From positions 1-64,000 of the IMG/VR virus record IMGVR_UViG_3300045988_181536: 64,000 nt of DNA. The stretch is one strand, 5' to 3'. This document shows, in pieces, positions 5,452-47,987 of this stretch; position 1 is the first letter of the stretch; each line of letters starts with the position of its first letter. A program made the translations under genes and the position numbers. The notes below the pieces were generated by a model that was given only the letters and a program-made list of their open reading frames with translations, made no database searches and was not told the DNA's origin. The DNA comes from a virus.

Positions 5452-6414
5452 ATGTCAGGCATAAAAACGTTATTTTCGTGGGTTAAAAATAAGTTTAAAA
5501 AGAATCGTAGAAGTGAATCTACGCCTTCTGAGAAGTTAACTGCTTTATTTAAATCAAAATCAGGTTCTTCAAAATTATTGGGTTGTAAACCCGACCTACC
5601 TGATGAGCGTGACCATATCAAACTTGGATCATCTATTTATCAAAATACCGTAGATAGCGTTAAGGATTTTTCTTTAAAAAAGTATGCGCCGCCTGTGCAA
5701 AATCAAAAAAATACATCGGCATGCGGGGGTTTTGCAGCATCTGCGGCTGTTTTTATTTTGCGCAATAAAATGTTAAATATGGTGCAGCCTGGTAATTCGG
5801 ATAAAGATGTAACTGGGAATTTTTTACTCTCACCTTTATATATTTATTATAATGCAAGGTTTGTAGACTTTTTATTTGATGATAAATTTTACGGCAAGGT
5901 TAGTTCTCCGCTTCCGGATTGCGGAGTTACACTTAGAAGCTTAATGAAAGCTTTAAAAAAATACGGTGTAGTTCCGGAAATCGTAATGCCATTTTATAAG
6001 TTTACACCGGATAGCAATCCGCCTGGAGCTATTGATCCTGCAAAGAATTTTAAAATAAAAGAATATTTAAGGATTTCAATGGAAGCTGATCCGGAAGAAA
6101 TCTGTAAAAATGTGTTGGTTGCTGAGCATCTTCCTATTATTGCAGGTTTATATCTTTATAAGGAACAAATGGATAATTTGGATTACTATGGATATTTGGA
6201 ACCTTGTAAGGATATCAAAGATGCTGAATTAATTGGAGGGCATGCGGTTTGTATTACCGGATTTAAACAAAAGAACGGTCAAACCTATTTTGAATTTTTG
6301 AATAGTTGGGGTACATCAACAGGGGATTTTGGATATGGTTATTTTCCTGCTTCGTTTTTGTCGGATAAAAATTATGTAATGGACCTTTGGACCTTTGATA
6401 AAAGTTATTTCTAA
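5452..6414 (+). CDS. papain-family (C1A) cysteine peptidase
   Basis: VQNQKNTSACGGFAASAAVF matches the papain VKNQGSCGSCWAFSAV block, with the oxyanion Gln and the nucleophile Cys at nt 5722..5724. IGGHAVCITGF matches the DHAVAAVGY His block (His at nt 6241..6243). LNSWGTSTGDFGYGYF matches the NSWGTGWGENGY Asn block. SD ggacggag lies upstream. Confidence 0.75.
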   Translation: MSGIKTLFSWVKNKFKKNRRSESTPSEKLTALFKSKSGSSKLLGCKPDLPDERDHIKLGSSIYQNTVDSVKDFSLKKYAPPVQNQKNTSACGGFAASAAVFILRNKMLNMVQPGNSDKDVTGNFLLSPLYIYYNARFVDFLFDDKFYGKVSSPLPDCGVTLRSLMKALKKYGVVPEIVMPFYKFTPDSNPPGAIDPAKNFKIKEYLRISMEADPEEICKNVLVAEHLPIIAGLYLYKEQMDNLDYYGYLEPCKDIKDAELIGGHAVCITGFKQKNGQTYFEFLNSWGTSTGDFGYGYFPASFLSDKNYVMDLWTFDKSYF

Positions 6415-8957: not shown

Positions 8958-9698
8958 ATGATAAATAAAATTCTTATCTCTTGTATTGCGGCATGTGCTG
9001 CTTTAATCATTCCTGGCGTTGTAAATGCCAAGAATCTATCCGAGCTGTCTGCTGAGTTTGGAGCTATACATGCAAAAGGAGTGGAGGCAAATAATTATGC
9101 TTATATTAAAGCTAATTTAAAAGATTGTATTGCTGCTTTTGATGAGTGGAAAGTTTCAGAAGAGGCAAAGGGTGTATCATATCCTGAAGCAACTACGAAA
9201 CTTTTTAGCTATTTAATTACTATTGACGACGGTAAGAATTGTCCTGTCTCTGCTTCGCCAGAGATTTTCACGAAATTAAGCGTTTGGAACTTAAAGGAAG
9301 TAACCGAGGTAGAAAATCCCACATTTTATCAAGAGTTAAAATCCAATGATTATAAAATTAATGGCGTTAAATTAAATGATAATCAAATAGTTAATGCTAC
9401 AATACGCTTTAGGGATTGGGACACTTTCAAGTCTATGCTCAATACTGATGCAGGACAAGCTGCTTTAAAATATGATAGATTTACACGTGCCGCATATGTT
9501 AATGCATTAATAACAAAATGGATGACCCTCTCTACAGCTTCAGACATCAGCAAAGCAATATCTGACTGCGCAGAACTGCAAGGCACTTTTGTAATTCTGG
9601 GAGTACAAACGAATGATGAAGCATTTGGCAAGCTTACGCAAATATCCCAGATTCTTTCCCGCAAACTTTTAGCTGCTCAAGCCGGAAATCTAAAATAA
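8958..9698 (+). CDS. secreted protein (signal peptide VNA|KN)
   Basis: MINKILISCIAACAALIIPGVVNAKNL; 246 aa. Confidence 0.45.
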   Translation: MINKILISCIAACAALIIPGVVNAKNLSELSAEFGAIHAKGVEANNYAYIKANLKDCIAAFDEWKVSEEAKGVSYPEATTKLFSYLITIDDGKNCPVSASPEIFTKLSVWNLKEVTEVENPTFYQELKSNDYKINGVKLNDNQIVNATIRFRDWDTFKSMLNTDAGQAALKYDRFTRAAYVNALITKWMTLSTASDISKAISDCAELQGTFVILGVQTNDEAFGKLTQISQILSRKLLAAQAGNLK

Positions 9699-9737
9699 GG
9701 CATAGCAGATAAAGACAAAATCCTAAACTTAGATAAA

Positions 9738-9768
9738 AACCTGCGGTTATCCGCAGGTTTTTATCTTT
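9738..9768 (+). terminator. rho-independent terminator (aacctgcgg ttat ccgcaggtt + tttatcttt)
   Basis: 9-bp GC-containing perfect stem, 4-nt loop and T-run, read directly. It closes the 1-9.7 kb gene block. Confidence 0.6.
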
Positions 9769-9825
9769 ACATTTCTTTAGGTTTAACAGAAAATAAAGCA
9801 TTAACATTTAAAATTTTATTTCAAT

Positions 9826-10431
9826 ATGCCTGGCTCAAATACATACTGCAGGGTAACTGCCAAATTATTCACTGAGTTTGCTTATTATTCTCCCGTTTAT
9901 GCTTCTCCACAAGCAGGATTGGAAGATGAAAAGTATCTGGATTTATCGTTTAATGTTTCAGGGGATGATAATACTATTTATGGATTAGTTACACATCCGA
10001 TTACTACGGTTAATGAGGTTTATGACGGAACTTCGGATGCCACAGGGTTAAAAGCTTCGCTTTATCGTTATACTACAATACAGCAATTAGATGAAGATGG
10101 GAACGTGGCTTCAATTAATACTTGGATGCCCGTGGGCGAAGAAATAGATGTTACTGCAGGCACTCCATTTAAGTTTGAACATTTATTTGCCGCAATTTAT
10201 AAACTAGTCGTTACAGGTACAGCGGAAAATTATGCTGTAAATGTATCGTATCAGTATGAGCCAATGAAGGCTGTTATGCTAAATGAGGTTAAATACACGA
10301 ATCCTCAAAGGTATTACGCAGAGCCGAATTATACAATACAATCCAACTCAATAAACAATATTGGAAATTTTAATACAACAGCTGTTGACAGTGTATCTGG
10401 AAATTCAGTAGATTTTGCGCCGAACGTTTAA
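9826..10431 (+). CDS. hypothetical protein (beta-rich)
   Basis: 201-aa ORF, the first gene after the terminator. No recognisable motif. Confidence 0.45.
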   Translation: MPGSNTYCRVTAKLFTEFAYYSPVYASPQAGLEDEKYLDLSFNVSGDDNTIYGLVTHPITTVNEVYDGTSDATGLKASLYRYTTIQQLDEDGNVASINTWMPVGEEIDVTAGTPFKFEHLFAAIYKLVVTGTAENYAVNVSYQYEPMKAVMLNEVKYTNPQRYYAEPNYTIQSNSINNIGNFNTTAVDSVSGNSVDFAPNV

Positions 10432-10446
10432 CAGCAACGCTTTACT

Positions 10447-12723
10447 GTGAAGGCAATTCAATATCTTATTAACTCCGTATTACCTGAGGATATTAGGGAC
10501 TACACTCGTACATATGACGCCAAGTCTATGAACGAGTTGCAGTCTGCTATAGCTGAAAAATATCCGGAACGTTATAGGGAATTAATGGATAAAATTATGG
10601 ATATTGCGCGTAAGTCTGTTTATTACTCGGGACAGACTTTGCGGCTTTCCGATTTTAAACCTCCGTTTGATAAAGATGTGGCATTAGAAGAAATGCACAA
10701 CGAGGTGCAGTATCTTCGTGACAATATTAAAGACGAAGAAAAAAAGAACAAAGCTATAATGGACGTATATGAAAGGTATGCTACAAAATTGGAAAAGGAT
10801 ACCTTAAATGCGGCTAAAACAAATCGCAATAATTTATACAATTCCGTATCTTCAGGCGCCAGAGGTTCTCCGTTCCAGTTAAAAGCTTTGATAACAACTC
10901 CGGCTTTGTACACTGATTATAAAGGCAGAACAATTCCTTATTTTGTTAAGCATAGTTTTGGAGAAGGTTTATCTATTCCTGAATATTTGGCGAGTACATA
11001 TGGAACACGCGCAGCAACAATTGCCATAAAAAAGAGTACAGCAAAGTTTGGCGGCTGGGGTAAAAGTTTATTTCGCCCGGTATCCAATATGATGATAACC
11101 TCAAAAAAAGATACGTCAAACAACGGTATTGATTTAGATATTGATGACGCATCTTTATATGGCAGAGTATTGGCGCGTCCGGTTGCCGGATATGCTGAAG
11201 GCACAATTGTTGACAGGGATGTATTAAATTCTTTAAAAAGCAAGGGCGTAAAAACTGTTATTGTTCATTCCCCTATTGCTACAGTATCTGCAGAGGGTAT
11301 TTCAGCTGAAGCTTTTGGACTAGATTACAATAAACGTTTGCCAAAGGTTGGAGATTTTCACGCAGGTATTACTGCTGCTACAGCAACTAGTGAACCTGCC
11401 ATTCAAGGTGGTTTGTGTCTACATTACACAACTGAAATTATGTTATGGGATGGAACAAAAAAACAAATTCGAGATATTGTTCCGGGACGTGACATTGTTA
11501 AAAGCTTAGATACAAATGGCAATATAATTGCAGCTAAAGTGCTTAATAAATTTAAGCAAGGTTGCAGGAACGTTTATGAAGTTATATTTGAACACAACGA
11601 TATTGCGTATTCTGTTATTTGTACTCGTAACCATAAATTTAAAATTTATGGGGAAATGTTAGATCTACCTGTAAAAGAAATTTATAAAAAATCTTTATGT
11701 TTTGATGTTCTTGGAGATCCTGCACGTATTCTTGATATAAGATTCTTGGGTAATAGGGTGTGTTTTGACATAGAAGTTGATAGTCCGACACATTTGTTTG
11801 TTTTAGCAAACGGTCTTATATCTCATAATTCGTCTAAGCATGAAGCTGGTGGATTTAAAGGAAAGAAGCGCACATTCTCCGGATTTGATTATATCAATCA
11901 ATTTTTTGAATCTCCTGAGCAGTATAAATCGAAAGCTCCGCTTGCAGAATCAGACGGTAGGGTAGAAAAAATATATGAAGCCCCACAAGGGGGACATTAT
12001 ATTGTTGTAAATGGTGTAGAACACTATGTTGATCCGGATTCTAATATTGAAGTACAAGAAGGTCAAGAGGTTGAACAAGGAGATCAGTTGGCGGATGGAC
12101 TCGTAGATTTAGGAGATGTATTGCGTTTGAGAGGTCTTGGGGAAGGTAGAAAGGCATTTGTAAACATAGGCAAACAGTTATTAGATGACAGTAATGCCAC
12201 CGCACATAAGCGTAATTTAGAGGTGTTGGCCCGAGGCATTGTAGATAAAGTAGAGATTACGGATCCTGATGGCGTGGGAGATTATTTGCCTGGGGATATT
12301 GTATCTTATAATGCATTGGAAGCTTCTTATAAACCCGATAAGGATTCAAAAGAAATAAATATATCCTCTAAAAATAAAGATTTAAAAGGCAAATACTTAC
12401 AGAAACCAGTATTGCATTATACTATCGGTACCAAGTTAACCAATAAAATGATTGATCACATCAGAAATACCGGCATAACGGATTCTGTTCTTGTATCGGA
12501 TAATGAACCTGGATTTACGCCAATTTATGTGAGATTAAGAGAAGCTCCAAACAAGGGTAATAGAAATTTCTTAGAAAGGGCAACAGCCCCTTATCAGGCA
12601 AAGAATTATGTTGAGTCAGCAGTCAGAGGTTATAAAACTAATATCAAAAGTAATTTAGACCCGTTTGTTAGAATGTCCATGCCTGATTTTGCCGAAAACA
12701 CTGATATAACAGGAAGATTTTAA
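10447..12723 (+). CDS. multisubunit RNA polymerase beta-prime subunit, C-terminal fragment (split rpoC-like), interrupted by a mini-intein in the trigger loop
   Basis: GTG start 15 nt after the upstream stop. [81 protein letters not shown] matches the bacterial beta-prime block [82 protein letters not shown][intein]SKHEAGG matches the trigger loop [32 protein letters not shown] matches DILRLRGV. There is no NADFDGD motif, so the N-terminal half must be encoded elsewhere. Confidence 0.8.
   Translation: [758 protein letters not shown]
11416..11829 (+). mobile_element. mini-intein (138 aa, Hint domain only, no homing endonuclease) in the RNAP beta-prime trigger loop
   Basis: Begins with Cys ([13 protein letters not shown], block A). 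It has TRNH (block B T-x-x-H) and ends ...[12 protein letters not shown] followed by Ser as the +1 extein residue. Removing it restores a contiguous trigger-loop sequence. Confidence 0.7.
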
Positions 12724-12725
12724 TT

Positions 12726-13889
12726 ATGTTAATTACGAAAAACTTTCAAAAATTTGCTTCAAATATTGCAGTAAAAAACAGTTCTTTTAAGTTTGCTAAC
12801 TTTAAGAAGTTTGCTTCAAATCCCCAAGTTGCTTCAGAAGTTCGTCAAGGTGTTCGTGACGAATATGGAAAATCTTTTAATGATAATAATCAGTGGACAG
12901 ATTTCAGGCTGGATATGAATAGAGGCACAATGGCCCAGGTAAGGAGATTAGGGGCTTACGCCAAAGGAGCAATTATGGGGCCAACTAACATCCAAAGACA
13001 ACGGAATAACATCCAAGCACAACAGCAACAGTTGAAGCCTCAAAACAACACTACAAATAATAATACCAACAATAATAAACAGGAAAAAGGTTGGTTTGGC
13101 AAACTTTGGGATAAAAGTAAGAATTTTGTTAAAGGTATGCATGAAAGCGGCATGCAAGAAGCGGGTAACTATACCAAAGCCGTAGTTGATAGTGATTTGG
13201 GTTCATTGGATCAAGTTTCTCGAGGTTTGTCAGATCGAGCCGGAGCTGAAGCGGTTAAAGCTCAACAAATCGCAAGAAGTTATATAGCACAAGGAAAACC
13301 GATTCCCAAAGATGTTGCGGATCGCATGGCTAAGGCTCGTGCTTACGATTCTGCTGCAGGTCAAGTGATGAAATCTACATCTTACACTTCACAAGATTTA
13401 GAGAAGAATATGCGTAACGAATTAGAGAGGTATCAAAATGATGTAGAAGAAAATATGTATAACTCTCGAAACACACAGGCGCGTGTATCTCAAACTTTAG
13501 AAGATAAAGCGTATAATGATTTTAAAAATCTTAGTGGATGGGATAAAGTTAAAGTCATATTCCAAAAATTTTTATCAGGTATGGGAGTAAAAATCCCTAA
13601 AGATTGGGCATATAACAATTTTATAAATCGTCAAAGAAATGAGGCGCAAGATTACATAAGAAATAAAAGTAATCTTGGTAATCAAATGTTGGGAGAATAT
13701 GCTGCTGCTTCACAATATGACTTAAATGATCCTCGTCAACGTGCTGAATTTTATCAAATAAACTCTCAACGGATGGATCAACTAAATAATCGTTATAAAA
13801 ATGTTAAAGTAAATCCCGAGGTATCAGCTTACATAGCGCAACAACAAGCAAAACGCAACCCTGTAAATTCTAATGCTCAAGCGGTTTAA
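12726..13889 (+). CDS. hypothetical virion-type protein with three tandem N-terminal NFxKFAS/N motifs and a Q/N-rich low-complexity region
   Basis: MLITKNFQKFASNIAVKNSSFKFANFKKFASNPQ, then NIQRQRNNIQAQQQQLKPQNNTTNNNTNNNKQ. 387 aa. Start is 2 nt after the rpoC-like stop. Confidence 0.5.
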   Translation: MLITKNFQKFASNIAVKNSSFKFANFKKFASNPQVASEVRQGVRDEYGKSFNDNNQWTDFRLDMNRGTMAQVRRLGAYAKGAIMGPTNIQRQRNNIQAQQQQLKPQNNTTNNNTNNNKQEKGWFGKLWDKSKNFVKGMHESGMQEAGNYTKAVVDSDLGSLDQVSRGLSDRAGAEAVKAQQIARSYIAQGKPIPKDVADRMAKARAYDSAAGQVMKSTSYTSQDLEKNMRNELERYQNDVEENMYNSRNTQARVSQTLEDKAYNDFKNLSGWDKVKVIFQKFLSGMGVKIPKDWAYNNFINRQRNEAQDYIRNKSNLGNQMLGEYAAASQYDLNDPRQRAEFYQINSQRMDQLNNRYKNVKVNPEVSAYIAQQQAKRNPVNSNAQAV

Positions 13890-13890
13890 T

Positions 13891-14295
13891 ATGTTTAATA
13901 TATCTAATTTTAAAAAATTTGCTGCCAGCCCTGATTGGATTAAAAACCAATTAACGGAATCAATAACAAATCAAGCAGATCAAACAAATATTGATGAAAA
14001 GGATACCACGGTTAATTCAAGCAACTACGATGCTAACATAACTTCGGAAGATAGGGAATCTGGGGAGTATGATTCTCTAATGAATAACAATAAAGATTTC
14101 TTGAAAAACATATTAAGTGACTATGGAAAGAAAAATAATGTGTTGGAAGATCTAAATAAAAAGGTATCCATATTAGAATCTCAGGGTCAAAAGGGAAAAG
14201 CTAATGCTTTAAGAACAGCTATAGGCAGATCCAGTGACTCTAAATTTACAGAAGATATAGACAGATTTTCAAAAGATATTGCGAACCAACTATAA
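13891..14295 (+). CDS. hypothetical protein with N-terminal NFKKFAAS motif
   Basis: The track gives 13873. I chose the in-frame ATG at 13891, which starts 1 nt after the upstream TAA and yields MFNISNFKKFAAS with the motif placed as in the paralogous N-termini. Confidence 0.45.
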   Translation: MFNISNFKKFAASPDWIKNQLTESITNQADQTNIDEKDTTVNSSNYDANITSEDRESGEYDSLMNNNKDFLKNILSDYGKKNNVLEDLNKKVSILESQGQKGKANALRTAIGRSSDSKFTEDIDRFSKDIANQL

Positions 14296-14359: not shown

Positions 14360-16783
14360 ATGCTTTCACTAAAGAACTATGATTTTAAAAAGGCTGCTTC
14401 CTCAGCTTTAAAAGAAACAGATGCTGAAATAGCTTTTTATAGGGCGTCTTCTACGGTAATGGAAGACAAAGCCTCGCCTTTTTTTACGAATGACTACTAT
14501 TTAGGTTTCGAGATTGTAAAAACGAATGACTCGTTTACAAAAATGGTAGGCATATATGTGTTTAGAGTTAACAAATATATATTTTATGCGCCTGTATTCT
14601 ACGTTAATGGCCAGATAAAAGGCACGGAGTTCTTATATAATGTAGAGGAGAAAAAGTTTGTTTATCTCAGTCCTGAATGGTGTGATTATTTCATAGGTCT
14701 TTATGAAGAGGAGGCTGATGGATTTCCAGTTGATATGGCAGAGGCCAATCAAGGCAGGCAAGATATTGAAATGATGCGTATTGCCACGCCATTATATAAG
14801 ACATCTTCTTTAAAGAAGTTTGCTTCGGATTTAAATCTATCCGCAGACGAAAGAGAGTTTGGTTCTTTTTCGGATATGTACGATAATGTTTTTGAAACAT
14901 TTGTTAATTCCCCTGATTCAGATTACAGCCCGTTGCATGTGTTTTTAAAATCTGCGGGTATAAATGCTTGGAATAAATTATCCGATGCTTTAAAAACAGA
15001 TAGGGAATTTGCTAATAATGTGGTAGGTCTTTGTGACGAGCAGGATTATATTCCTATGGATGTTTTATCCGAGGCAAAACAAAATGTTAAACATGCTGCG
15101 GAGAACCCAAAGAAAGATTTATTAATTTTGCATAAAGGCATATTTAATAAAAATACCGTTAAGACTGCTGCTGAACAAATCGCCAATGGTTATTCATTTG
15201 AGGATAACCGAGATGAAGATCAGCTTAATATGATATATGATGCAGATCCGGATCAGAATTGGGCAGGTATTTCCACCAATGCTCCGTCTGTTTATGATAT
15301 TTTAACTACTGACGGGTCTACGGTTAGGTGTGTTGCTATTGTGGGAAACTCAGATTATGGGAAAACTCCAGCCCTTTTAGTTTCGATAGATCCGGAACGC
15401 AAAGGAATAATTCAGTATTATGACATTAATAGTCCCGAAGAATTATATAATCAAGAGGATGAAAATGTTAAAGCCCCAGGCGTACACGATCCTGTAGTAG
15501 GTAACTTTAGAAATATTTTAGCGATAGAGGAAAAGGATTCGGATAAACGAGAGGAAGATTTAACCAAGGTGTTAAAAGAAAAACCTGAAGTTGGAAAAAT
15601 TTATGGCATTTGGGATCCTGAATATTGTTATATATCTGATGAAGCTTTTTATGTTGGAGAAGTAAAAGCTAATGCTGATGATCCTAAGGGATACACTGTA
15701 AAAGTTTATCCAATTCAAGGTTATGATAAGTTTAAGCCTTGGGAAGCTTTGGTTCAAGGAACGGATGAAATTATTCAAGTAAATCCTTCAGCTCAATATC
15801 CTATGTATGATTTAAAGGTGTTTCAGCCAAGCATACGTTGGATAGAGTTGCCTACTGAAACGATTGATTTGGCTAAAAAGATGAAGGCTGAATTTAAAAT
15901 TGATGATGCTTTTTCATTTAAGAAAAAGGATTATCGCATTGACATAATTCAAGCCGAATGGGTTCCAGGTAACTGGGCAAATCTATATGCTAATACTTTG
16001 GTCAAACATTCCAGCGTAGGACATGGATATGTCAATTACAATGGCGACGGCAGTTATAACTTAAACATAGCAGGATTTAAATTTGCAAACGTAAATGTAA
16101 TGGGTGCTATGGCGTTGCTTATGGGGAATGTAAATATTTCCGAAGAAACTGCCGATTATATAATTAAGCATGCAAATGATAATCAAAGGCGTGGCGAGGA
16201 TTATAAATTCCTATTTAAAAAATTTGCGGATAGAATAATTTTAAATCCTGATCCGGACTTTTTTGAAGGGTTTGATTCCGATTTAAATATACCATATGAA
16301 ATTCCGGAAACTCGCGCTTTGATGACGGATGAAACTTCTTATGCTCCGCCTGCTCCACGATATGGTGATATGATGACGCCAACCATGATGGGGGTAGCAA
16401 AAGCAACCGAAGGAGTATCCAGAGAAGACCCCAATGATTTCTTACAAACAGCCACTCCGAATATGTTGGCAGAGTTTGCGGAACGCAGTGGACAACGCAG
16501 CGTATTTGAGCATGGCATTGTTAGCGTGTTATCCCAGGTTTCAGATGCACAAATGTATATTAACGAATTTTTACCTTCGTTAAGGGATGGCATGGATAAA
16601 CTTGCTAGGCTGTTATTCTTAATAGTAATAAGCCCGCAAAACTTTGTGAAATACTACGGTAGTGATGATATTAAAGGATTGGAAAATTCTGTTTCAGCAT
16701 GCTTTAAACAGCTATCAGAATTAACATTAGATTTAATACAAAAGACTTCCGGTGTATCTACAAATACTACCAATAAAGTTTAA
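14360..16783 (+). CDS. large hypothetical virion-type protein (807 aa) with N-terminal NYDFKKAAS motif and two internal KKFA(S/D) copies
   Basis: MLSLKNYDFKKAAS at the N-terminus. SSLKKFASD is encoded at nt 14808..14834 and FLFKKFADR at nt 16209..16235. No catalytic motif recognised. GNSDYGKT resembles a Walker A but is mid-protein. Confidence 0.5.
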   Translation: MLSLKNYDFKKAASSALKETDAEIAFYRASSTVMEDKASPFFTNDYYLGFEIVKTNDSFTKMVGIYVFRVNKYIFYAPVFYVNGQIKGTEFLYNVEEKKFVYLSPEWCDYFIGLYEEEADGFPVDMAEANQGRQDIEMMRIATPLYKTSSLKKFASDLNLSADEREFGSFSDMYDNVFETFVNSPDSDYSPLHVFLKSAGINAWNKLSDALKTDREFANNVVGLCDEQDYIPMDVLSEAKQNVKHAAENPKKDLLILHKGIFNKNTVKTAAEQIANGYSFEDNRDEDQLNMIYDADPDQNWAGISTNAPSVYDILTTDGSTVRCVAIVGNSDYGKTPALLVSIDPERKGIIQYYDINSPEELYNQEDENVKAPGVHDPVVGNFRNILAIEEKDSDKREEDLTKVLKEKPEVGKIYGIWDPEYCYISDEAFYVGEVKANADDPKGYTVKVYPIQGYDKFKPWEALVQGTDEIIQVNPSAQYPMYDLKVFQPSIRWIELPTETIDLAKKMKAEFKIDDAFSFKKKDYRIDIIQAEWVPGNWANLYANTLVKHSSVGHGYVNYNGDGSYNLNIAGFKFANVNVMGAMALLMGNVNISEETADYIIKHANDNQRRGEDYKFLFKKFADRIILNPDPDFFEGFDSDLNIPYEIPETRALMTDETSYAPPAPRYGDMMTPTMMGVAKATEGVSREDPNDFLQTATPNMLAEFAERSGQRSVFEHGIVSVLSQVSDAQMYINEFLPSLRDGMDKLARLLFLIVISPQNFVKYYGSDDIKGLENSVSACFKQLSELTLDLIQKTSGVSTNTTNKV

Positions 16784-25217: not shown

Positions 25218-26249
25218 ATGGACGACTATAAGAATATAGAGTTAAGTTTAAATGGAGTATCCGGAGACGCTTTAAATGACAGGCTTGCTCAAGAGCTTGG
25301 CAGCTGCTCGGAAGGCACTATAAAGATGGCTTCTTCAGCCGGTACTTCGTTCATCCGTAAACAGGTTTTTGAAAAGGGTTGGACCCGTCAGATTTGCCAT
25401 TTTGAAGTTCTTAATGGTTCTGGTGACAAACGTCTTGTCCCAATGTTCAATACCGACTATCCGGTTGCGATGTTCTACATAGAGCCTACAAACTATCCTG
25501 CTGCTGTGCTTCCCTTTGACCAAGGCACGCACACTCAGTACTATAGGGCAGACAAGGCTCCGATGACCTTCTTCAAGATTGCTACACCTGAGTTCCAAAA
25601 GAATCGTGTAACGCTTGATACTTATCCGTTTGATCTTCGTAAGGTTATAATGGATACCGGTCTGAAGAACATGGTTAAGACCGAAGACCTCGTTTGGTAC
25701 AACCTCTCCGACAGTGTTGCCGCTCAGAACAATGGCACATATACGTTTGCTGGCGGTATGGAGCCGTTAGTGATGAATGAAATCACTAATATCTTCACCA
25801 AGCACAGCCTGAATCATGGTGTTAACCTTATCAACAAGGTTACCTTCAGCGCTCTTGTCAACGGTCAGAAGAACAACTTCCAACAGTTCGGCGTTGATCT
25901 TACCAGCAAGGTTTTCGAAGAAGGCGCTAAAGCGTTCGACGGTAAGAATGTTTACGGTATGAAGTGGATCTCCACCTTCAAGACCGACATTGTTCCTGAC
26001 AACGTTATAATGGCCTACACTGAAGAAGACTACCTCGGTAAGTGTGCAGAGCTGTACAAGCCGGTGATGTACGTAAAGCGTGAAAAGGATCGGATATCCT
26101 GCTGCGCTGAGGAAGTTATAGGTATGCTTATTGCCAATACTTCCGGCGTTGCAAAGATTGTGCTGTACAGCGCCCAAGCCACAATGAATGCCTACCCGCA
26201 GATCAGGCCTTATCTCTCGGTTGCTGGAGGTACTAAGACTGGGGGCTAA
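25218..26249 (+). CDS. putative major capsid protein (HK97-fold size class)
   Basis: 343 aa. SD aaagga. Locally about 45-48% GC with C-ending codons in a mid-30s% GC genome, as expected of the most highly expressed gene. A strong terminator follows. Lies upstream of the sheath and tube genes. Confidence 0.45.
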   Translation: MDDYKNIELSLNGVSGDALNDRLAQELGSCSEGTIKMASSAGTSFIRKQVFEKGWTRQICHFEVLNGSGDKRLVPMFNTDYPVAMFYIEPTNYPAAVLPFDQGTHTQYYRADKAPMTFFKIATPEFQKNRVTLDTYPFDLRKVIMDTGLKNMVKTEDLVWYNLSDSVAAQNNGTYTFAGGMEPLVMNEITNIFTKHSLNHGVNLINKVTFSALVNGQKNNFQQFGVDLTSKVFEEGAKAFDGKNVYGMKWISTFKTDIVPDNVIMAYTEEDYLGKCAELYKPVMYVKREKDRISCCAEEVIGMLIANTSGVAKIVLYSAQATMNAYPQIRPYLSVAGGTKTGG

Positions 26250-28573: not shown

Positions 28574-30103
28574 ATGATTCAGAATTATTCAGAACATAAA
28601 CCTCAGATGTTGATTTATAACAACAGAGAGGTAGTCTCGGATGGGACAGCGGATCGTAATTCCGCCTGCTTAGTTGGCGTGTGCAGACCGTCATTTACGA
28701 CTAAAAATTTCCTATCGCAGATGGTTCCCGTTACCGAGTTAACTGTTGCAGAATTAGGTGAAGAGGATGAATCTATTACGCTTCCGTTATCTAATTTTAC
28801 GCCAGTCTCGGATTTCTTACAGCAGTTTGTAGATACAAATCAAATTCAATATGTAGATGCCAATGAGAGTCCCGTTGCACACACTTGGATTACAGCAAGC
28901 AAAGGTACAAATGGCGTTATTAGTTTAACTATAACAAAACTTGGAGAGGAAGAAACTCGTCCTGATGTTTATATTAGTCTGCCTAAACTTGCTTTTAATG
29001 TTAATTTTAATAATCCAAGCAACCCCATTTCCATTCAAGCAATCAATTCACCCTCGGATATTACGACTTATCTCGGGTTAGTAGATAGTGATCCTTCGGA
29101 TGAGGACTTTAATAGTTTAGCGTTTGCAGCAACCTTAGGATATACTGCAGGGGAAGGAAACGGATTTTATGTAGACGCTATTGATAGGACTTTCCAAACT
29201 TTAGACTCCGATGAAGCAGCAGCTGAATTAGCGGCTTACAACGCCTCATTTAATAAATTATCACGAACAGATTTATTTATGAATTTGTGGTGTGATACTG
29301 ATACTTTAAGTGTGCTAAATTCAGCTAAATCTTATGTGATTCAAGCTTCACAGCCTGATGTACAAAGATGGCGCGGCCTTTACGCTTCAACAGCTACTAC
29401 AGATGACCAAGGAGCAGCAGCTATTAGTCGAAGCACCAAATGGGCTTATAATGGTGTAGTAAACGTTTGGTCTCCCGGTGCTTATTATCTAATGACCGCA
29501 GATGACGGTACTACCCAAGAAGTACCTTTGGCAAACAAGTATATTGCCGCCGGTATAGCATGTATGCGAGCTAACCTGCTCCCACAGCAAGGCATGTCAA
29601 GGATGGAAATCTCATGGATTTCTTCGGTGCCTGCAGCGTATGCTTCTTGGACAGATACGCAATTAAACAATGTTGCTGCAAACGGCGTTTGGATTATCGC
29701 TCAAGATGACGATAGAACGGTGCCCTATGTCCGCCATCAGTTAACTACGGATTCGTCTCACGGTGTGTTATACTATGAAGATAACATTCGAGATATTGTC
29801 TATAATGTTAATTATGGTGTAAAAGATTTATTCAGAGATTACCCAGGAAGACGAAACATAACCCGCAGTTTACTGCAGGAACTGGAAAACCGTTTAGGCG
29901 ATTATTTGCTTTCGTTAACCCAGGAAGGTTCTTCGGTGGAGGAACGACGCATTGGTCCAATGCTTGTTGATGTAGATTTGGATTCCATAACTGCGGTACG
30001 AGATAGCCAGTTTGCCGATAGAGTAAATCTTTCCGGAGATTATTATGTTGCAACTTCCTTAAATGTGTTAAAGATTTCTCTTAATACATATTTGGGACTT
30101 TAA
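28574..30103 (+). CDS. putative contractile tail sheath protein
   Basis: 509 aa, immediately followed by a 154-aa tube-size gene. Assigned by size and order only. Confidence 0.45.
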   Translation: MIQNYSEHKPQMLIYNNREVVSDGTADRNSACLVGVCRPSFTTKNFLSQMVPVTELTVAELGEEDESITLPLSNFTPVSDFLQQFVDTNQIQYVDANESPVAHTWITASKGTNGVISLTITKLGEEETRPDVYISLPKLAFNVNFNNPSNPISIQAINSPSDITTYLGLVDSDPSDEDFNSLAFAATLGYTAGEGNGFYVDAIDRTFQTLDSDEAAAELAAYNASFNKLSRTDLFMNLWCDTDTLSVLNSAKSYVIQASQPDVQRWRGLYASTATTDDQGAAAISRSTKWAYNGVVNVWSPGAYYLMTADDGTTQEVPLANKYIAAGIACMRANLLPQQGMSRMEISWISSVPAAYASWTDTQLNNVAANGVWIIAQDDDRTVPYVRHQLTTDSSHGVLYYEDNIRDIVYNVNYGVKDLFRDYPGRRNITRSLLQELENRLGDYLLSLTQEGSSVEERRIGPMLVDVDLDSITAVRDSQFADRVNLSGDYYVATSLNVLKISLNTYLGL

Positions 30104-47045: not shown

Positions 47046-47987
47046 ATGCCTAAAGACACTTCATATTTTGAAACAGCAGGAACCCGTCCGGTATGGGATC
47101 CTGATTTTTCGTCTTCGGAAACAGCCAGATACAATGATTATGATCAAGACAATGTAAAGGTTATTAACGAAGATCTAAATGACGATATGGAACTTTTATC
47201 CGAGATGGATAAAAATCCGGATTCGTTCATAAACGATAATCAAAAATTAACGTATGAAGAGGCTTATAGGAACTATCGTCAAAATCCAAATGTATCTAAT
47301 TTAAATAAAGTTATACATAGTTTGGGAGATACGATAAATTATTCTTTGGCTTCAAACAACGCCAGCGGGGATCCTTTGTTGGAGGCTAAGGCTAAACTAA
47401 TTACTGCAAAAGCAGTTAAGGAATTTGACCCTGGGTATAAAGTCAGTTTGCCCACCTATGTCTCTTCACAACTTCGCAAGATGACCCGCCTTGCCAGAGA
47501 TTTAAGAAATCCAATTAAGATTCCGGAAAGATATATCTATGAATCGCAAAATCTGCAACAAGCGGAAAAGGACTTTATTGAAGAGCATGGAAGAGAACCG
47601 GATTTAACGGAACTTTCTGATGAGACCGGAATGTCTATTAAAAAAATTTTAGATATTCGCAAGAAATCTTTAAAACAAGTAAGTGAGCAGCAGGGTTTTA
47701 CCAATGTTAATAATGAGGATGACTCAGCGTCATCCATTGACGAAACAGCTGTTGCAGGACCGGATTTCTTGGAAGAGGCGCAAACTTACGTATATTATGG
47801 ATTGGATCATCGCCAAAAAAAGGTTTTTGAACACTTAACGGGTTTTGGCGGTGCAAAGGTTTTATCTCCTGCACAAATTTCCCAGAAATATAAGGTATCA
47901 TTGCCTACGATATCCCGCATGGCAAAAAGATTTGCAAAAGAAATAAGTGAAAACTACGACGCATTAGAAAGTGTATACGCCTCATGA
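47046..47987 (+). CDS. sigma-70 family RNA polymerase sigma factor (regions 2 and 4) with acidic N-terminal extension
   Basis: AVKEFDPGYKVSLPTYVSSQLRKMTR matches region 2.2-2.3 (AVEKFD..GYKFSTYATWWIRQAITR). DLRNPIKIPER matches region 2.4 (ARTIRIPVHM). LDHRQKKVFEHLTGFGGAKVLSPAQISQKYKVSLPTISRMAKRFAKEI matches the region 4 HTH pattern. Confidence 0.75.
   Translation: MPKDTSYFETAGTRPVWDPDFSSSETARYNDYDQDNVKVINEDLNDDMELLSEMDKNPDSFINDNQKLTYEEAYRNYRQNPNVSNLNKVIHSLGDTINYSLASNNASGDPLLEAKAKLITAKAVKEFDPGYKVSLPTYVSSQLRKMTRLARDLRNPIKIPERYIYESQNLQQAEKDFIEEHGREPDLTELSDETGMSIKKILDIRKKSLKQVSEQQGFTNVNNEDDSASSIDETAVAGPDFLEEAQTYVYYGLDHRQKKVFEHLTGFGGAKVLSPAQISQKYKVSLPTISRMAKRFAKEISENYDALESVYAS

What the first reader, a model, noticed from the sequence alone, without database searches (positions are those of the whole stretch)
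11416..11829. Mini-intein inserted precisely in the RNAP trigger loop
A 138-aa Hint-only element begins with Cys (CLHYTTE), has a TRNH block B and ends in ISHN followed by Ser. Excising it joins ...SEPAIQGGL to SKHEAGG, which regenerates a trigger-loop-like sequence (compare [15 protein letters not shown]). The trigger loop is the mobile catalytic element of the enzyme, so protein splicing is mandatory for activity. The insert lacks a homing endonuclease, which suggests an old, fixed intein or conditional splicing.
Basis: partly seen in the sequence, partly recalled or inferred. Interest (0 to 1): 0.65.

Follow-up and report, generated by a model that had tools for sequence, protein, structure and literature searches.

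The report
Mini-intein splitting phage RNA-polymerase trigger loop
A 138-residue self-splicing protein element (a mini-intein) sits inside the catalytic trigger loop of a large phage's RNA polymerase; it is an ordinary intein by mechanism, but this phage polymerase family carries inteins at at least seven different points within that one short loop.

Summary
Window 11416-11829 encodes C1...HN138 followed by Ser+1, in frame in a 758-aa homologue of the C-terminal half of RNAP beta'. The insert passes both NCBIfam intein splice-region models, aligns end to end with the Npu DnaE mini-intein, and models as a Hint fold (pLDDT 96.9). It is absent, to the residue, from orthologues: the closest intein-free allele reads ...[18 protein letters not shown]..., the predicted spliced junction. 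Alignment to solved bacterial beta' puts the insertion between the equivalents of E. coli M932 and R933, three residues before the catalytic His. The 'old, fixed intein' reading is not supported. The site is polymorphic among close relatives, the intein diverges far faster than its extein, and same-site inteins with LAGLIDADG endonucleases exist. In an intein-unbiased sample, 98 of 147 representative proteins carry inteins, at seven points within 14 trigger-loop residues and six around the bridge helix. Some tandem inteins are only 3-5 residues apart. One intein-bearing gene has an extein 100% identical to an intein-free one. Verdict: a canonical class-1 mini-intein at a previously unreported site, inside a dense intein hot spot. 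Splicing itself was not tested.

The parts
10447..11415 (+). N-extein: residues 1-323 of the phage RNAP beta' C-terminal-half homologue (GTG start). It includes the bridge-helix-like segment [24 protein letters not shown] (11011-11082) and ends with the first half of the trigger loop, SEPAIQGGL (11389-11415).
   Evidence: TIGR02386 rpoC E = 6.5e-46, profile positions 555-1069. phmmer to solved beta' 8dy7_D E = 2.3e-31 with residue-level alignment. Orthologues in Vibrio phage D181 and Salmonella phage Arash gp216. Coordinates verified.
11416..11829 (+). Mini-intein, 138 aa, class 1, no homing endonuclease. Cys1 at 11416-11418; block B T70-R-N-H73 at 11623-11634; block F [17 protein letters not shown] at 11761-11811 (Asp118 at 11767-11769, His126 at 11791-11793); block G His137-Asn138 at 11824-11829.
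   Evidence: NCBIfam intein_Nterm and intein_Cterm pass their cut-offs. Full-length alignment to the Npu DnaE intein. AF2 model pLDDT 96.9 and Foldseek top hit 4kl5, TM 0.87. C1, H73, D118, H126 and N138 are invariant and T70 is at least 90% conserved among 18 same-site mini-inteins that are otherwise about 40% identical. Omega is about 0.03-0.26.
11830..12723 (+). C-extein including the stop codon. It starts with the +1 nucleophile Ser (11830-11832) and the second half of the trigger loop, SSKHEAGG (11830-11853). His327 in spliced numbering aligns with the trigger-loop catalytic His of bacterial beta'.
   Evidence: Alignment. The intein-free allele P0004 reads ..[15 protein letters not shown]... 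Coordinates verified.

Best explanation
The 414 bases encode a canonical class-1 mini-intein translated in frame inside the trigger loop of the C-terminal half of a phage multisubunit-type RNA polymerase beta' subunit. Shown: it has the Hint fold, all splicing residues, and a residue-exact insertion relative to intein-free orthologues. Inferred mechanism: Cys1 performs an N-S acyl shift. The thioester is transferred to the side chain of Ser+1. Asn138, assisted by His137 and the block-B/F residues, cyclises to release the intein. An O-N shift then restores the peptide bond Leu323-Ser, producing a 620-aa subunit with the continuous loop ...[17 protein letters not shown].... The insertion falls between the residues that align with E. 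coli beta' M932 and R933, inside the first trigger helix and three residues before the catalytic His. The unspliced precursor is therefore very probably inactive, so splicing is needed for a working enzyme. By homology with Arash Gp216, this enzyme is probably packaged in the virion. The element has no endonuclease and cannot home on its own. It is best read as the endonuclease-less stage of a homing cycle that is active in this phage family. It persists because imprecise loss would destroy an essential enzyme, and, by the general logic of homing endonucleases, an occupied site is not cut by endonucleases that target the empty site.
For: Intein HMMs pass their cut-offs. Full-length similarity to Npu DnaE, gp41-1 and Ssp DnaE inteins. 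Confident Hint-fold model whose 50 best structural matches are almost all inteins, with a few related Hint domains (BIL, hedgehog). D181 and Arash orthologues lack exactly residues 324-461. P0004, with 79% extein identity and a syntenic locus, has the empty site with the same flanks at DNA level. Catalytic residues are invariant in same-site inteins that have otherwise drifted to about 40% identity. Purifying selection acts on the intein: omega about 0.025 against P0001 and about 0.26 against P0002. Trigger-loop placement comes from HMMER alignment to solved beta'. Of 289 inteins mapped in relatives, all but a few begin with Cys, end in Asn and are followed by Ser or Thr. Same-site inteins carry LAGLIDADG domains (PF14528). 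Identical exteins occur with and without inteins. Arash Gp216 and Gp206 are among the most abundant virion proteins (PMC10585845), and there is partial synteny with that virion module.
Against: Splicing was not observed; no proteomic or expression data exist for this sequence. Pfam PF14890 is below its gathering score. The partner large subunit (the Arash gp206 homologue) was not found in the window, so the completeness of the enzyme in this genome is unverified. Insertions in the trigger loop are not lethal in principle: E. coli keeps the 188-aa SI3 domain there (established knowledge). The claim that the precursor is inactive therefore rests on the exact position, not on a test. The virion location is inferred from a 27%-identical orthologue.
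Confidence: 0.88

Rival explanations
1. Conditional (regulatory) intein: splicing is held back until a cue such as redox state, temperature or assembly, so the polymerase is activated post-translationally at a particular time in infection or packaging.
For: Nothing direct. The intein has five cysteines (positions 1, 50, 69, 95, 116). Cys116, two residues before the block-F Asp, is invariant among same-site mini-inteins and present in 190 of 264 family inteins, so a Cys1-Cys116 disulfide is conceivable. Conditional splicing of native inteins is documented in general (Novikova 2016).
Against: Many relatives, including one with an extein 100% identical to an intein-bearing gene, work without any intein, so no regulatory role is required by the enzyme. 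Insertion points vary residue by residue, as expected for selfish homing and not for a conserved switch. The F:2 Cys is replaced by Thr or Val in a quarter of the inteins.
Confidence: 0.07
2. Old, fixed, vertically inherited intein: an immobile relic retained since an ancient invasion.
For: There is no endonuclease domain. The carriers WIN, P0001, P0002 and P0003 form a clade and share the His-Asn ending that is rare in the family.
Against: Intein-free P0004 nests within that clade. Intein identity does not track extein identity: 52% against 87% for WIN-P0002, while P0003-P0005 inteins (44%) are more alike than WIN-P0003 inteins (41%) despite more distant exteins. The same site holds endonuclease-bearing inteins in other lineages. 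Only about two thirds of representative family members have any intein.
Confidence: 0.04
3. Not a splicing element. Either it is a lineage-specific domain retained in the mature enzyme (like E. coli SI3 in the trigger loop) or a decayed intein in a dead gene.
For: Retained trigger-loop insertions exist in bacteria (established knowledge). Foldseek also matches non-splicing Hint relatives (BIL2, hedgehog) at lower rank.
Against: All splice-junction residues are present and invariant across divergent same-site copies. Omega is below 1 for both intein and extein, and the ORF is intact. The fold is Hint and not the sandwich-barrel hybrid motif of SI3. Presence or absence is residue-exact in orthologues. 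The insertion interrupts the helix residues that contact the substrate, not the loop tip.
Confidence: 0.02

Closest known systems
Npu/Ssp DnaE and gp41-1 inteins (class-1 mini or split inteins of cyanobacteria and cyanophage-like metagenomic DNA)
   Same: Closest solved relatives by sequence (4kl6 E = 8.8e-11, full length) and by fold (4kl5 TM 0.87). About the same size (137-140 aa), with no endonuclease and the same block A/B/F/G residues. gp41-1 also uses Ser+1.
   Different: Those are naturally split (trans-splicing) and sit in DnaE or a helicase. This one is contiguous (cis-splicing), sits in RNAP beta', uses Ser+1 where DnaE inteins use Cys+1, and ends in His-Asn where Npu DnaE ends in Ser-Asn. 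Identity is only about 30%.
Archaeal largest-subunit RNAP inteins (Mja rPol A', Mja rPol A'', Nph rPol A''; halobacterial rpolA)
   Same: Inteins in homologues of the same RNAP subunit. A'' is the archaeal counterpart of the beta' C-terminal half that carries the trigger loop (Goodwin 2006 PMC1635734; Soucy 2014 PMC4071816; 14 COG0086 inteins in Novikova 2016).
   Different: Different domain of life, and large endonuclease-bearing inteins in M. jannaschii (from memory). I could not establish their insertion points, so whether any is allelic with the trigger-loop sites here is untested. No paper in the searched library links a natural intein to the trigger loop.
RPB2/RPA2/RPC2 and viral second-largest-subunit RNAP inteins (Goodwin, Butler & Poulter 2006)
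   Same: Multiple non-allelic inteins in one RNAP subunit, all at conserved positions lining the active-site cleft, with the same argument that splicing must precede assembly or activity.
   Different: Those are in the other large subunit (the beta homologue): six sites spread over the fork, hybrid-binding and anchor domains, in eukaryotes, chloroplasts and their viruses. Here there are at least 14 sites in the beta' half, seven of them within 14 residues, in bacteriophages.
E. coli beta' SI3 (lineage-specific insertion in the trigger loop)
   Same: A domain of 100-200 aa encoded in frame inside the trigger loop of beta'.
   Different: SI3 is retained in the mature enzyme, sits at the loop tip between the two trigger helices and has a sandwich-barrel hybrid fold (established knowledge). 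The element here is a Hint domain with splice junctions, placed inside the first trigger helix.
Homing-endonuclease traffic in jumbo-phage virion RNAP genes and intein/intron-dense gut phages
   Same: Phage RNAP genes as recurrent targets of homing elements. AR9- and MarsHill-like phages have intron-disrupted RNAP genes. Zeta crAss-like phages have an 'unprecedented' intein and intron density (Yutin 2021). From memory, an intron-encoded endonuclease in a PhiPA3 virion-RNAP gene mediates competition with PhiKZ (Birkholz et al. 2024).
   Different: Those cases involve introns, or a different (crAss-type) polymerase. The window has weak major-head, tail-sheath and sigma-region-3 hits and Arash/D181-like synteny, so it looks like a large myovirus.

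Membership tests
Intein (Hint superfamily, class 1) | In-frame insertion at a conserved site of a host protein, absent residue-exactly from orthologues | tested here: met
   D181 and Arash orthologues and P0004 lack exactly residues 324-461. The flanks align without a gap.
Intein (Hint superfamily, class 1) | N-terminal nucleophile (Cys/Ser1) and block B TxxH | tested here: met
   Cys1 and T70-R-N-H73. C1 and H73 are invariant and T70 is at least 90% conserved in 18 same-site inteins.
Intein (Hint superfamily, class 1) | Block F Asp/His, C-terminal (His-)Asn and a +1 Ser/Thr/Cys | tested here: met
   D118, H126, H137-N138 and Ser+1. D118, H126 and N138 are invariant. TIGR01443 scores 17.9 bits against a cut-off of 15.6.
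Intein (Hint superfamily, class 1) | Curated profile models reach their thresholds | tested here: inconclusive
   NCBIfam TIGR01445 (27.8 against 24.5) and TIGR01443 pass on the isolated insert. Pfam PF14890 (24.4 against 35.8), PF01079 and PF05203 do not.
Intein (Hint superfamily, class 1) | Hint fold | tested here: met
   AF2 model pLDDT 96.9, pTM 0.88, all-beta horseshoe. The 50 best Foldseek PDB matches are almost all inteins, with a few related Hint domains (BIL, hedgehog); top TM 0.87.
Intein (Hint superfamily, class 1) | Actual protein splicing (excision plus ligation) | not testable with these tools
   Needs expression or proteomics. Supported only indirectly, by purifying selection and residue conservation.
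Mini-intein (no homing endonuclease) | No endonuclease domain between blocks B and F; length about 130-160 aa | tested here: met
   138 aa; gap-poor end-to-end alignment to the 137-aa Npu DnaE intein; no LAGLIDADG or HNH hit; the model contains only the Hint domain.
Class 3 intein | No Cys/Ser1 nucleophile; WCT motif with Cys at block F position 4 | tested here: not met
   It starts with Cys1, and block F position 4 is Asp118. The nearby Cys116 is at F:2.
Bacterial intein-like (BIL) domain | Hint domain in variable regions of non-essential or secreted proteins, usually without a +1 nucleophile and without clean ligation | tested here: not met
   It is inserted in the most conserved motif of an RNAP subunit, with Ser+1 and HN. 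BIL2 ranks below inteins in the fold search.
RNAP beta' trigger loop (as the insertion target) | Segment aligning to bacterial ...[16 protein letters not shown]... with the catalytic His conserved | tested here: met
   HMMER alignment to 8dy7_D and 8k60_D pairs [17 protein letters not shown] with [19 protein letters not shown], H and GG are identical, Met becomes Leu and Arg becomes Ser. E. coli residue numbers are quoted from memory.
SI3-type retained trigger-loop insertion | Sandwich-barrel hybrid motif domain at the loop tip, present in all members of the lineage | tested here: not met
   Hint fold; located inside the first trigger helix; sporadic presence among close relatives.

The most novel reading that the evidence does not exclude
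The trigger loop and bridge helix of this phage virion-RNAP family are an arena for competition between co-infecting phages. Endonuclease-bearing inteins cut the empty active-site codons of rival genomes, and the many adjacent insertion points reflect repeated escape and re-targeting. Endonuclease-less mini-inteins such as the one in the window would then be maintained as cheap 'immunity alleles' that block cutting at that site. On this reading the hot spot is shaped by selection on the phage and is not merely parasitic clutter.
Probability: 0.25. Interest if true: 0.7.

Novelty: new member of a known kind. Interest (0 to 1): 0.45.

Why it matters
The window's element adds a new host protein and insertion site to the intein catalogue. 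I found no earlier report of a natural intein in the trigger loop of a multisubunit RNAP, though the archaeal A'' sites could not be checked. The wider result is more useful. A family with 965 representative clusters at E <= 1e-30, from large uncultured phages, carries inteins at about 14 sites that cluster on the two mobile catalytic elements of RNAP. Two thirds of representative genes are occupied, tandem inteins lie 3-5 residues apart, and some alleles differ only by intein presence. That is a natural system for studying homing, site switching, endonuclease loss and precise deletion at single-residue resolution. It also supplies very small (116-140 aa) Ser+1 or Thr+1 mini-inteins of possible use in protein engineering. 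For annotation, these polymerase genes will be mis-sized or missed unless inteins are masked.

Tried and rejected
1. A megablast of 9000-14000 against the phage collection found nothing. The genome has no close sequenced relative there.

2. I looked in the window for the partner large subunit with Arash gp206 (tblastn) and with Pfam and PHROGs on all large ORFs. It was not found.

3. hmmalign against the intein-free profile misplaced the large inserts. I replaced it with intein N- and C-block HMMs.

4. I considered that the window is a Zeta crAss-like phage, because those are intein-dense and 145-192 kb. I rejected this because the beta' half is bacterial-like and the window has weak major-head, tail-sheath and sigma hits plus Arash/D181 synteny.

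5. I tried to find the insertion points of the archaeal rPol A'/A'' inteins in the literature.

6. I considered a class-3 intein because of the invariant block-F Cys. I rejected this because Cys1 is present and F:4 is Asp.

7. I considered a free-standing endonuclease next to the gene. No neighbouring ORF has such a hit. The only weak HNH-like PHROG hit is 35 kb away, on a sigma-like ORF.
Full report
**What is there**

The interval 11416-11829 translates on the + strand into 138 codons, [10 protein letters not shown]...LANGLISHN. These lie inside one uninterrupted ORF, 10447-12723 (GTG start, 758 aa), with no competing ORF of 60 aa or more on either strand across the interval. The host ORF matches the C-terminal half of bacterial RNA polymerase beta' (TIGR02386 rpoC, E = 6.5e-46, profile positions 555-1069). 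Weaker Pfam hits are to RNA_pol_Rpb1 domains 4 and 5.

**Is it an intein?**

- Taken alone, the insert passes the curated cut-offs of both NCBIfam splice-region models: intein_Nterm 27.8 bits against 24.5, and intein_Cterm 17.9 against 15.6. Pfam's Intein_splicing model is significant (E = 2.7e-5) but below its gathering score.
- Against all PDB sequences it aligns end to end (residues 2-138) with the 137-aa Npu DnaE mini-intein (4kl6, E = 8.8e-11). It also matches 2keq, the gp41-1 intein and Ssp DnaE.
- An AlphaFold2 model built from 18 same-site relatives is very confident (pLDDT 96.9, pTM 0.88) and all-beta. Its best Foldseek match is the NpuDnaE intein (TM 0.87). The 50 best matches are almost all inteins, with a few related Hint domains (BIL, hedgehog).
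- There is no room and no signal for an endonuclease domain.
- In the 18-sequence alignment the only invariant positions are C1, G24, V28, H73, C116, D118, I119, E120, H126, L127, F128, L130 and N138, with T70 at 90% or more. These include all the catalytic residues, while the rest has drifted to about 40% identity.

**Is it an insertion relative to orthologues?**

Yes, to the residue. tblastn against phage genomes found orthologues in Vibrio phages D181, D148 and D69 and in Salmonella phage Arash. In a three-way alignment they lack exactly residues 324-461, with clean flanks (...SEVLTQMVL | STKHDAKAGKG...).

A search of the large protein collection found a much closer intein-free allele, P0004 (619 aa, 79% extein identity), at a syntenic locus. 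At DNA level its empty site reads ...ATT CAA GGT GGT CTA | TCT TCC AAG CAC GAA..., which is ...[10 protein letters not shown].... That is the junction splicing would create in the window protein.

**Where in the polymerase?**

phmmer of the conceptually spliced 620-aa extein against PDB gives bacterial beta' chains (8dy7_D, E = 2.3e-31). The alignment pairs [28 protein letters not shown] with [27 protein letters not shown].

- Leu323 (position -1) therefore corresponds to the trigger-loop Met.
- Ser+1 corresponds to the Arg.
- His327 (spliced numbering) corresponds to the catalytic His. In E. coli numbering, quoted from memory, these are M932, R933 and H936.
- The intein thus interrupts the first trigger helix between two substrate-contacting positions. 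It is not at the loop tip, where E. coli tolerates SI3.

That the precursor is inactive is a strong inference, not a result.

**Selection and age**

| Comparison | Extein | Intein |
|---|---|---|
| WIN vs P0001 | 98% aa identity | 1 amino-acid change, roughly ten synonymous changes, omega about 0.025 |
| WIN vs P0002 | 87% aa identity, dN 0.09 | 52% aa identity, dN 0.48, omega about 0.26 |

So the intein is constrained but evolves about five times faster than its host at nonsynonymous sites.

- It is also more AT-rich than its host: GC 31% against 38%, and GC3 19% against 29%.
- In an extein tree the intein-free P0004 nests inside the carrier clade (P0003,(P0004,(P0002,(P0001,window)))). Intein identity does not track extein identity.
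- This contradicts an 'old, fixed' element. It fits the usual cycle of invasion, endonuclease decay and loss, or replacement by homing from diverged donors.

**The family context is the larger finding**

I mapped junctions with intein N- and C-block HMMs in two samples.

*Sample 1.* The 120 best hits to the full protein, plus the window, contain 160 inteins.
- 12 proteins have no intein, 62 have one, 43 have two and 4 have three.
- All 160 start with Cys, 159 end in Asn, and all are followed by Ser or Thr.
- This hit list is biased, because the query contained an intein.

*Sample 2.* To remove the bias I repeated the search with intein-free P0004 against 1.84 billion cluster representatives. 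It returned 965 hits at E <= 1e-30.
- Of the 147 full-length proteins among the top 150, 98 (67%) carry inteins, 129 in all.
- 71 proteins have one intein, 23 have two and 4 have three.

Insertion points in the unbiased sample, in window-extein numbering:

| Site | Flanks | n |
|---|---|---|
| 315 | AANAL \| SEP | 6 |
| 318 | EPI \| TQ | 6 |
| 320 | EPIAQ \| SGLN | 3 |
| 323 (the window's site) | Q..L \| SxKH | 19 |
| 324 | Q..LN \| [ST]KH | 32 |
| 327 | KH \| [ST]GG | about 14 |
| 328 | KHT \| SG | about 3 |
| 193-196 | four positions around the bridge-helix-like STK \| STAKGG | 33 |
| 205 | GGDL \| SKQ | 11 |
| about 183 and about 266 | singletons | 1 each |

That makes seven sites within 14 trigger-loop residues.

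Further family features:
- Both mini forms (116-183 aa) and long forms (about 290-420 aa) occur at most sites. The long forms carry precomputed LAGLIDADG_3 or Hom_end_hint Pfam hits.
- Several proteins carry two trigger-loop inteins separated by five residues (TQMAL, for example P0015). Others have four between them (SGLN in P0123, SAKH in P0174) or three (TKH in P0182).
- P0006 (386-aa intein at 324) has an extein 100% identical (621/621) to intein-free P0010.
- P0007 (395-aa intein at 328) is 99.4% identical in its extein. Its differences include two substitutions flanking its site (S to A and A to S), as expected for co-conversion during homing.
- Intein gain and loss is therefore current in these phage populations.
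- Only one intein of this family is present in the window (six-frame scan).

**What kind of phage and enzyme?**

The window is AT-rich (about 36% GC), and all ORFs of 150 aa or more are on one strand. It has weak PHROG hits to a major head protein (25218-26249) and a tail sheath (28574-30103). It also has a sigma-70 region-3 hit (47046-47987) and a papain-like peptidase (5452-6414). Two downstream ORFs match genes that follow the orthologous beta' gene in D181 and Arash, including the Arash gp218 structural protein.

In Arash, mass spectrometry found Gp216 (the orthologue) and Gp206 among the most abundant virion proteins (PMC10585845). I therefore infer a virion-packaged RNAP of a large myovirus. 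The partner subunit was not found in the window. The Zeta crAss-like phages are similarly intein-dense (PMC7886860), but they use a different, crAss-type polymerase.

**Comparison with what is known**

- Inteins in RNAP are known in the archaeal A' and A'' subunits (Mja, Nph, halobacteria) and, at six non-allelic sites near the active centre, in RPB2-type subunits of eukaryotes, chloroplasts and viruses (PMC1635734, PMC4071816, PMC4760082).
- Full-text searches combining intein with trigger loop, bridge helix, rpoC, jumbo phage or multisubunit RNAP returned no description of a natural trigger-loop intein or of this phage hot spot.
- I could not determine where the archaeal A'' inteins insert. 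That is the main open prior-art question.

**Verdict**

By mechanism the element is a textbook class-1 mini-intein, so I rate it a new member of a known kind. The clustering of insertion points on the trigger loop and bridge helix, and the tandem inteins a few residues apart, are unusual in degree and worth a dedicated study.

Noticed in passing
Relatives P0001-P0257; sites in window-extein numbering 315-328 and 193-205: This phage beta' family is an intein hot spot with at least 14 insertion points. Seven lie within 14 trigger-loop residues and six in or just after the bridge-helix-like segment. 67% of 147 representative proteins are occupied, with up to three inteins per protein.
   Followed up: yes
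P0182, P0123, P0174, P0240, P0015 and others: Tandem inteins are separated by only 3-5 extein residues, for example ...SLN|intein|TKH|intein|SGG... in P0182 and ...EPV|intein|TQMAL|intein|SAKH... in P0015. I do not know of closer natural intein pairs. Whether each can splice with such short flanks is untested.
   Followed up: partly
P0006, P0010, P0007: Three alleles with 99.4-100% identical exteins differ only in intein state: none, a 386-aa intein at site 324, or a 395-aa intein at site 328. The site-328 allele also has two substitutions flanking the site. This is direct evidence of very recent homing or precise loss.
   Followed up: partly
P0022, P0029, P0036, P0042 (TL-323) and P0029 (BH-195): Some mini-inteins are only 116 aa and still have all splicing blocks. 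They are smaller than the solved mini-inteins they resemble (125-140 aa) and are possible protein-engineering parts.
   Followed up: no
264 distinct family inteins: Most inteins of this family end in Ser-Asn (218) or Lys-Asn (23), not the canonical His-Asn (19, including the window's). 72% have a Cys two residues before the block-F Asp.
   Followed up: partly
window 12726-12830, 13873-13940, 14360-14410 (+): Three consecutive ORFs just downstream of the RNAP gene begin with a shared N-terminal motif, [FY]-x-K-[FA]-A-S (NFQKFAS, NFKKFAS, NFKKFAA, DFKKAAS). There are 4 regex hits on the + frames and none on the reverse frames. It may be a propeptide-cleavage or capsid-targeting signal of virion proteins. 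A papain-like peptidase ORF lies at 5452-6414.
   Followed up: partly
window 11416-11829 vs 10447-12723: The intein is markedly more AT-rich than its host gene: GC 31.2% against 38.2%, and GC3 18.8% against 29.3%. This is compatible with a foreign origin or weaker codon selection.
   Followed up: no
L003 2355-4036 (contig of the intein-free relative P0004): An IS605-type pair, a TnpB-like gene (OrfB_IS605 / Cas12f1-like_TNB) and a Y1 transposase, lies about 2 kb upstream of the beta' gene in this related phage contig. No counterpart was noticed in the window.
   Followed up: no
window 47046-47987 (+): A 313-aa ORF has a Sigma-70 region 3 hit (E = 4.9e-5, just below the Pfam cut-off) and a weak PHROG 'HNH endonuclease' hit. 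It is a candidate phage sigma factor for the phage RNAP. Arash also has a virion-associated sigma-like protein.
   Followed up: no
window 1-64000: No homologue of the other large RNAP subunit (Arash gp206, 1525 aa) was detectable in the window by tblastn, Pfam or PHROGs. In Arash it lies about 5 kb upstream of the beta' half. The gene order differs here, or the partner is too diverged to detect.
   Followed up: partly
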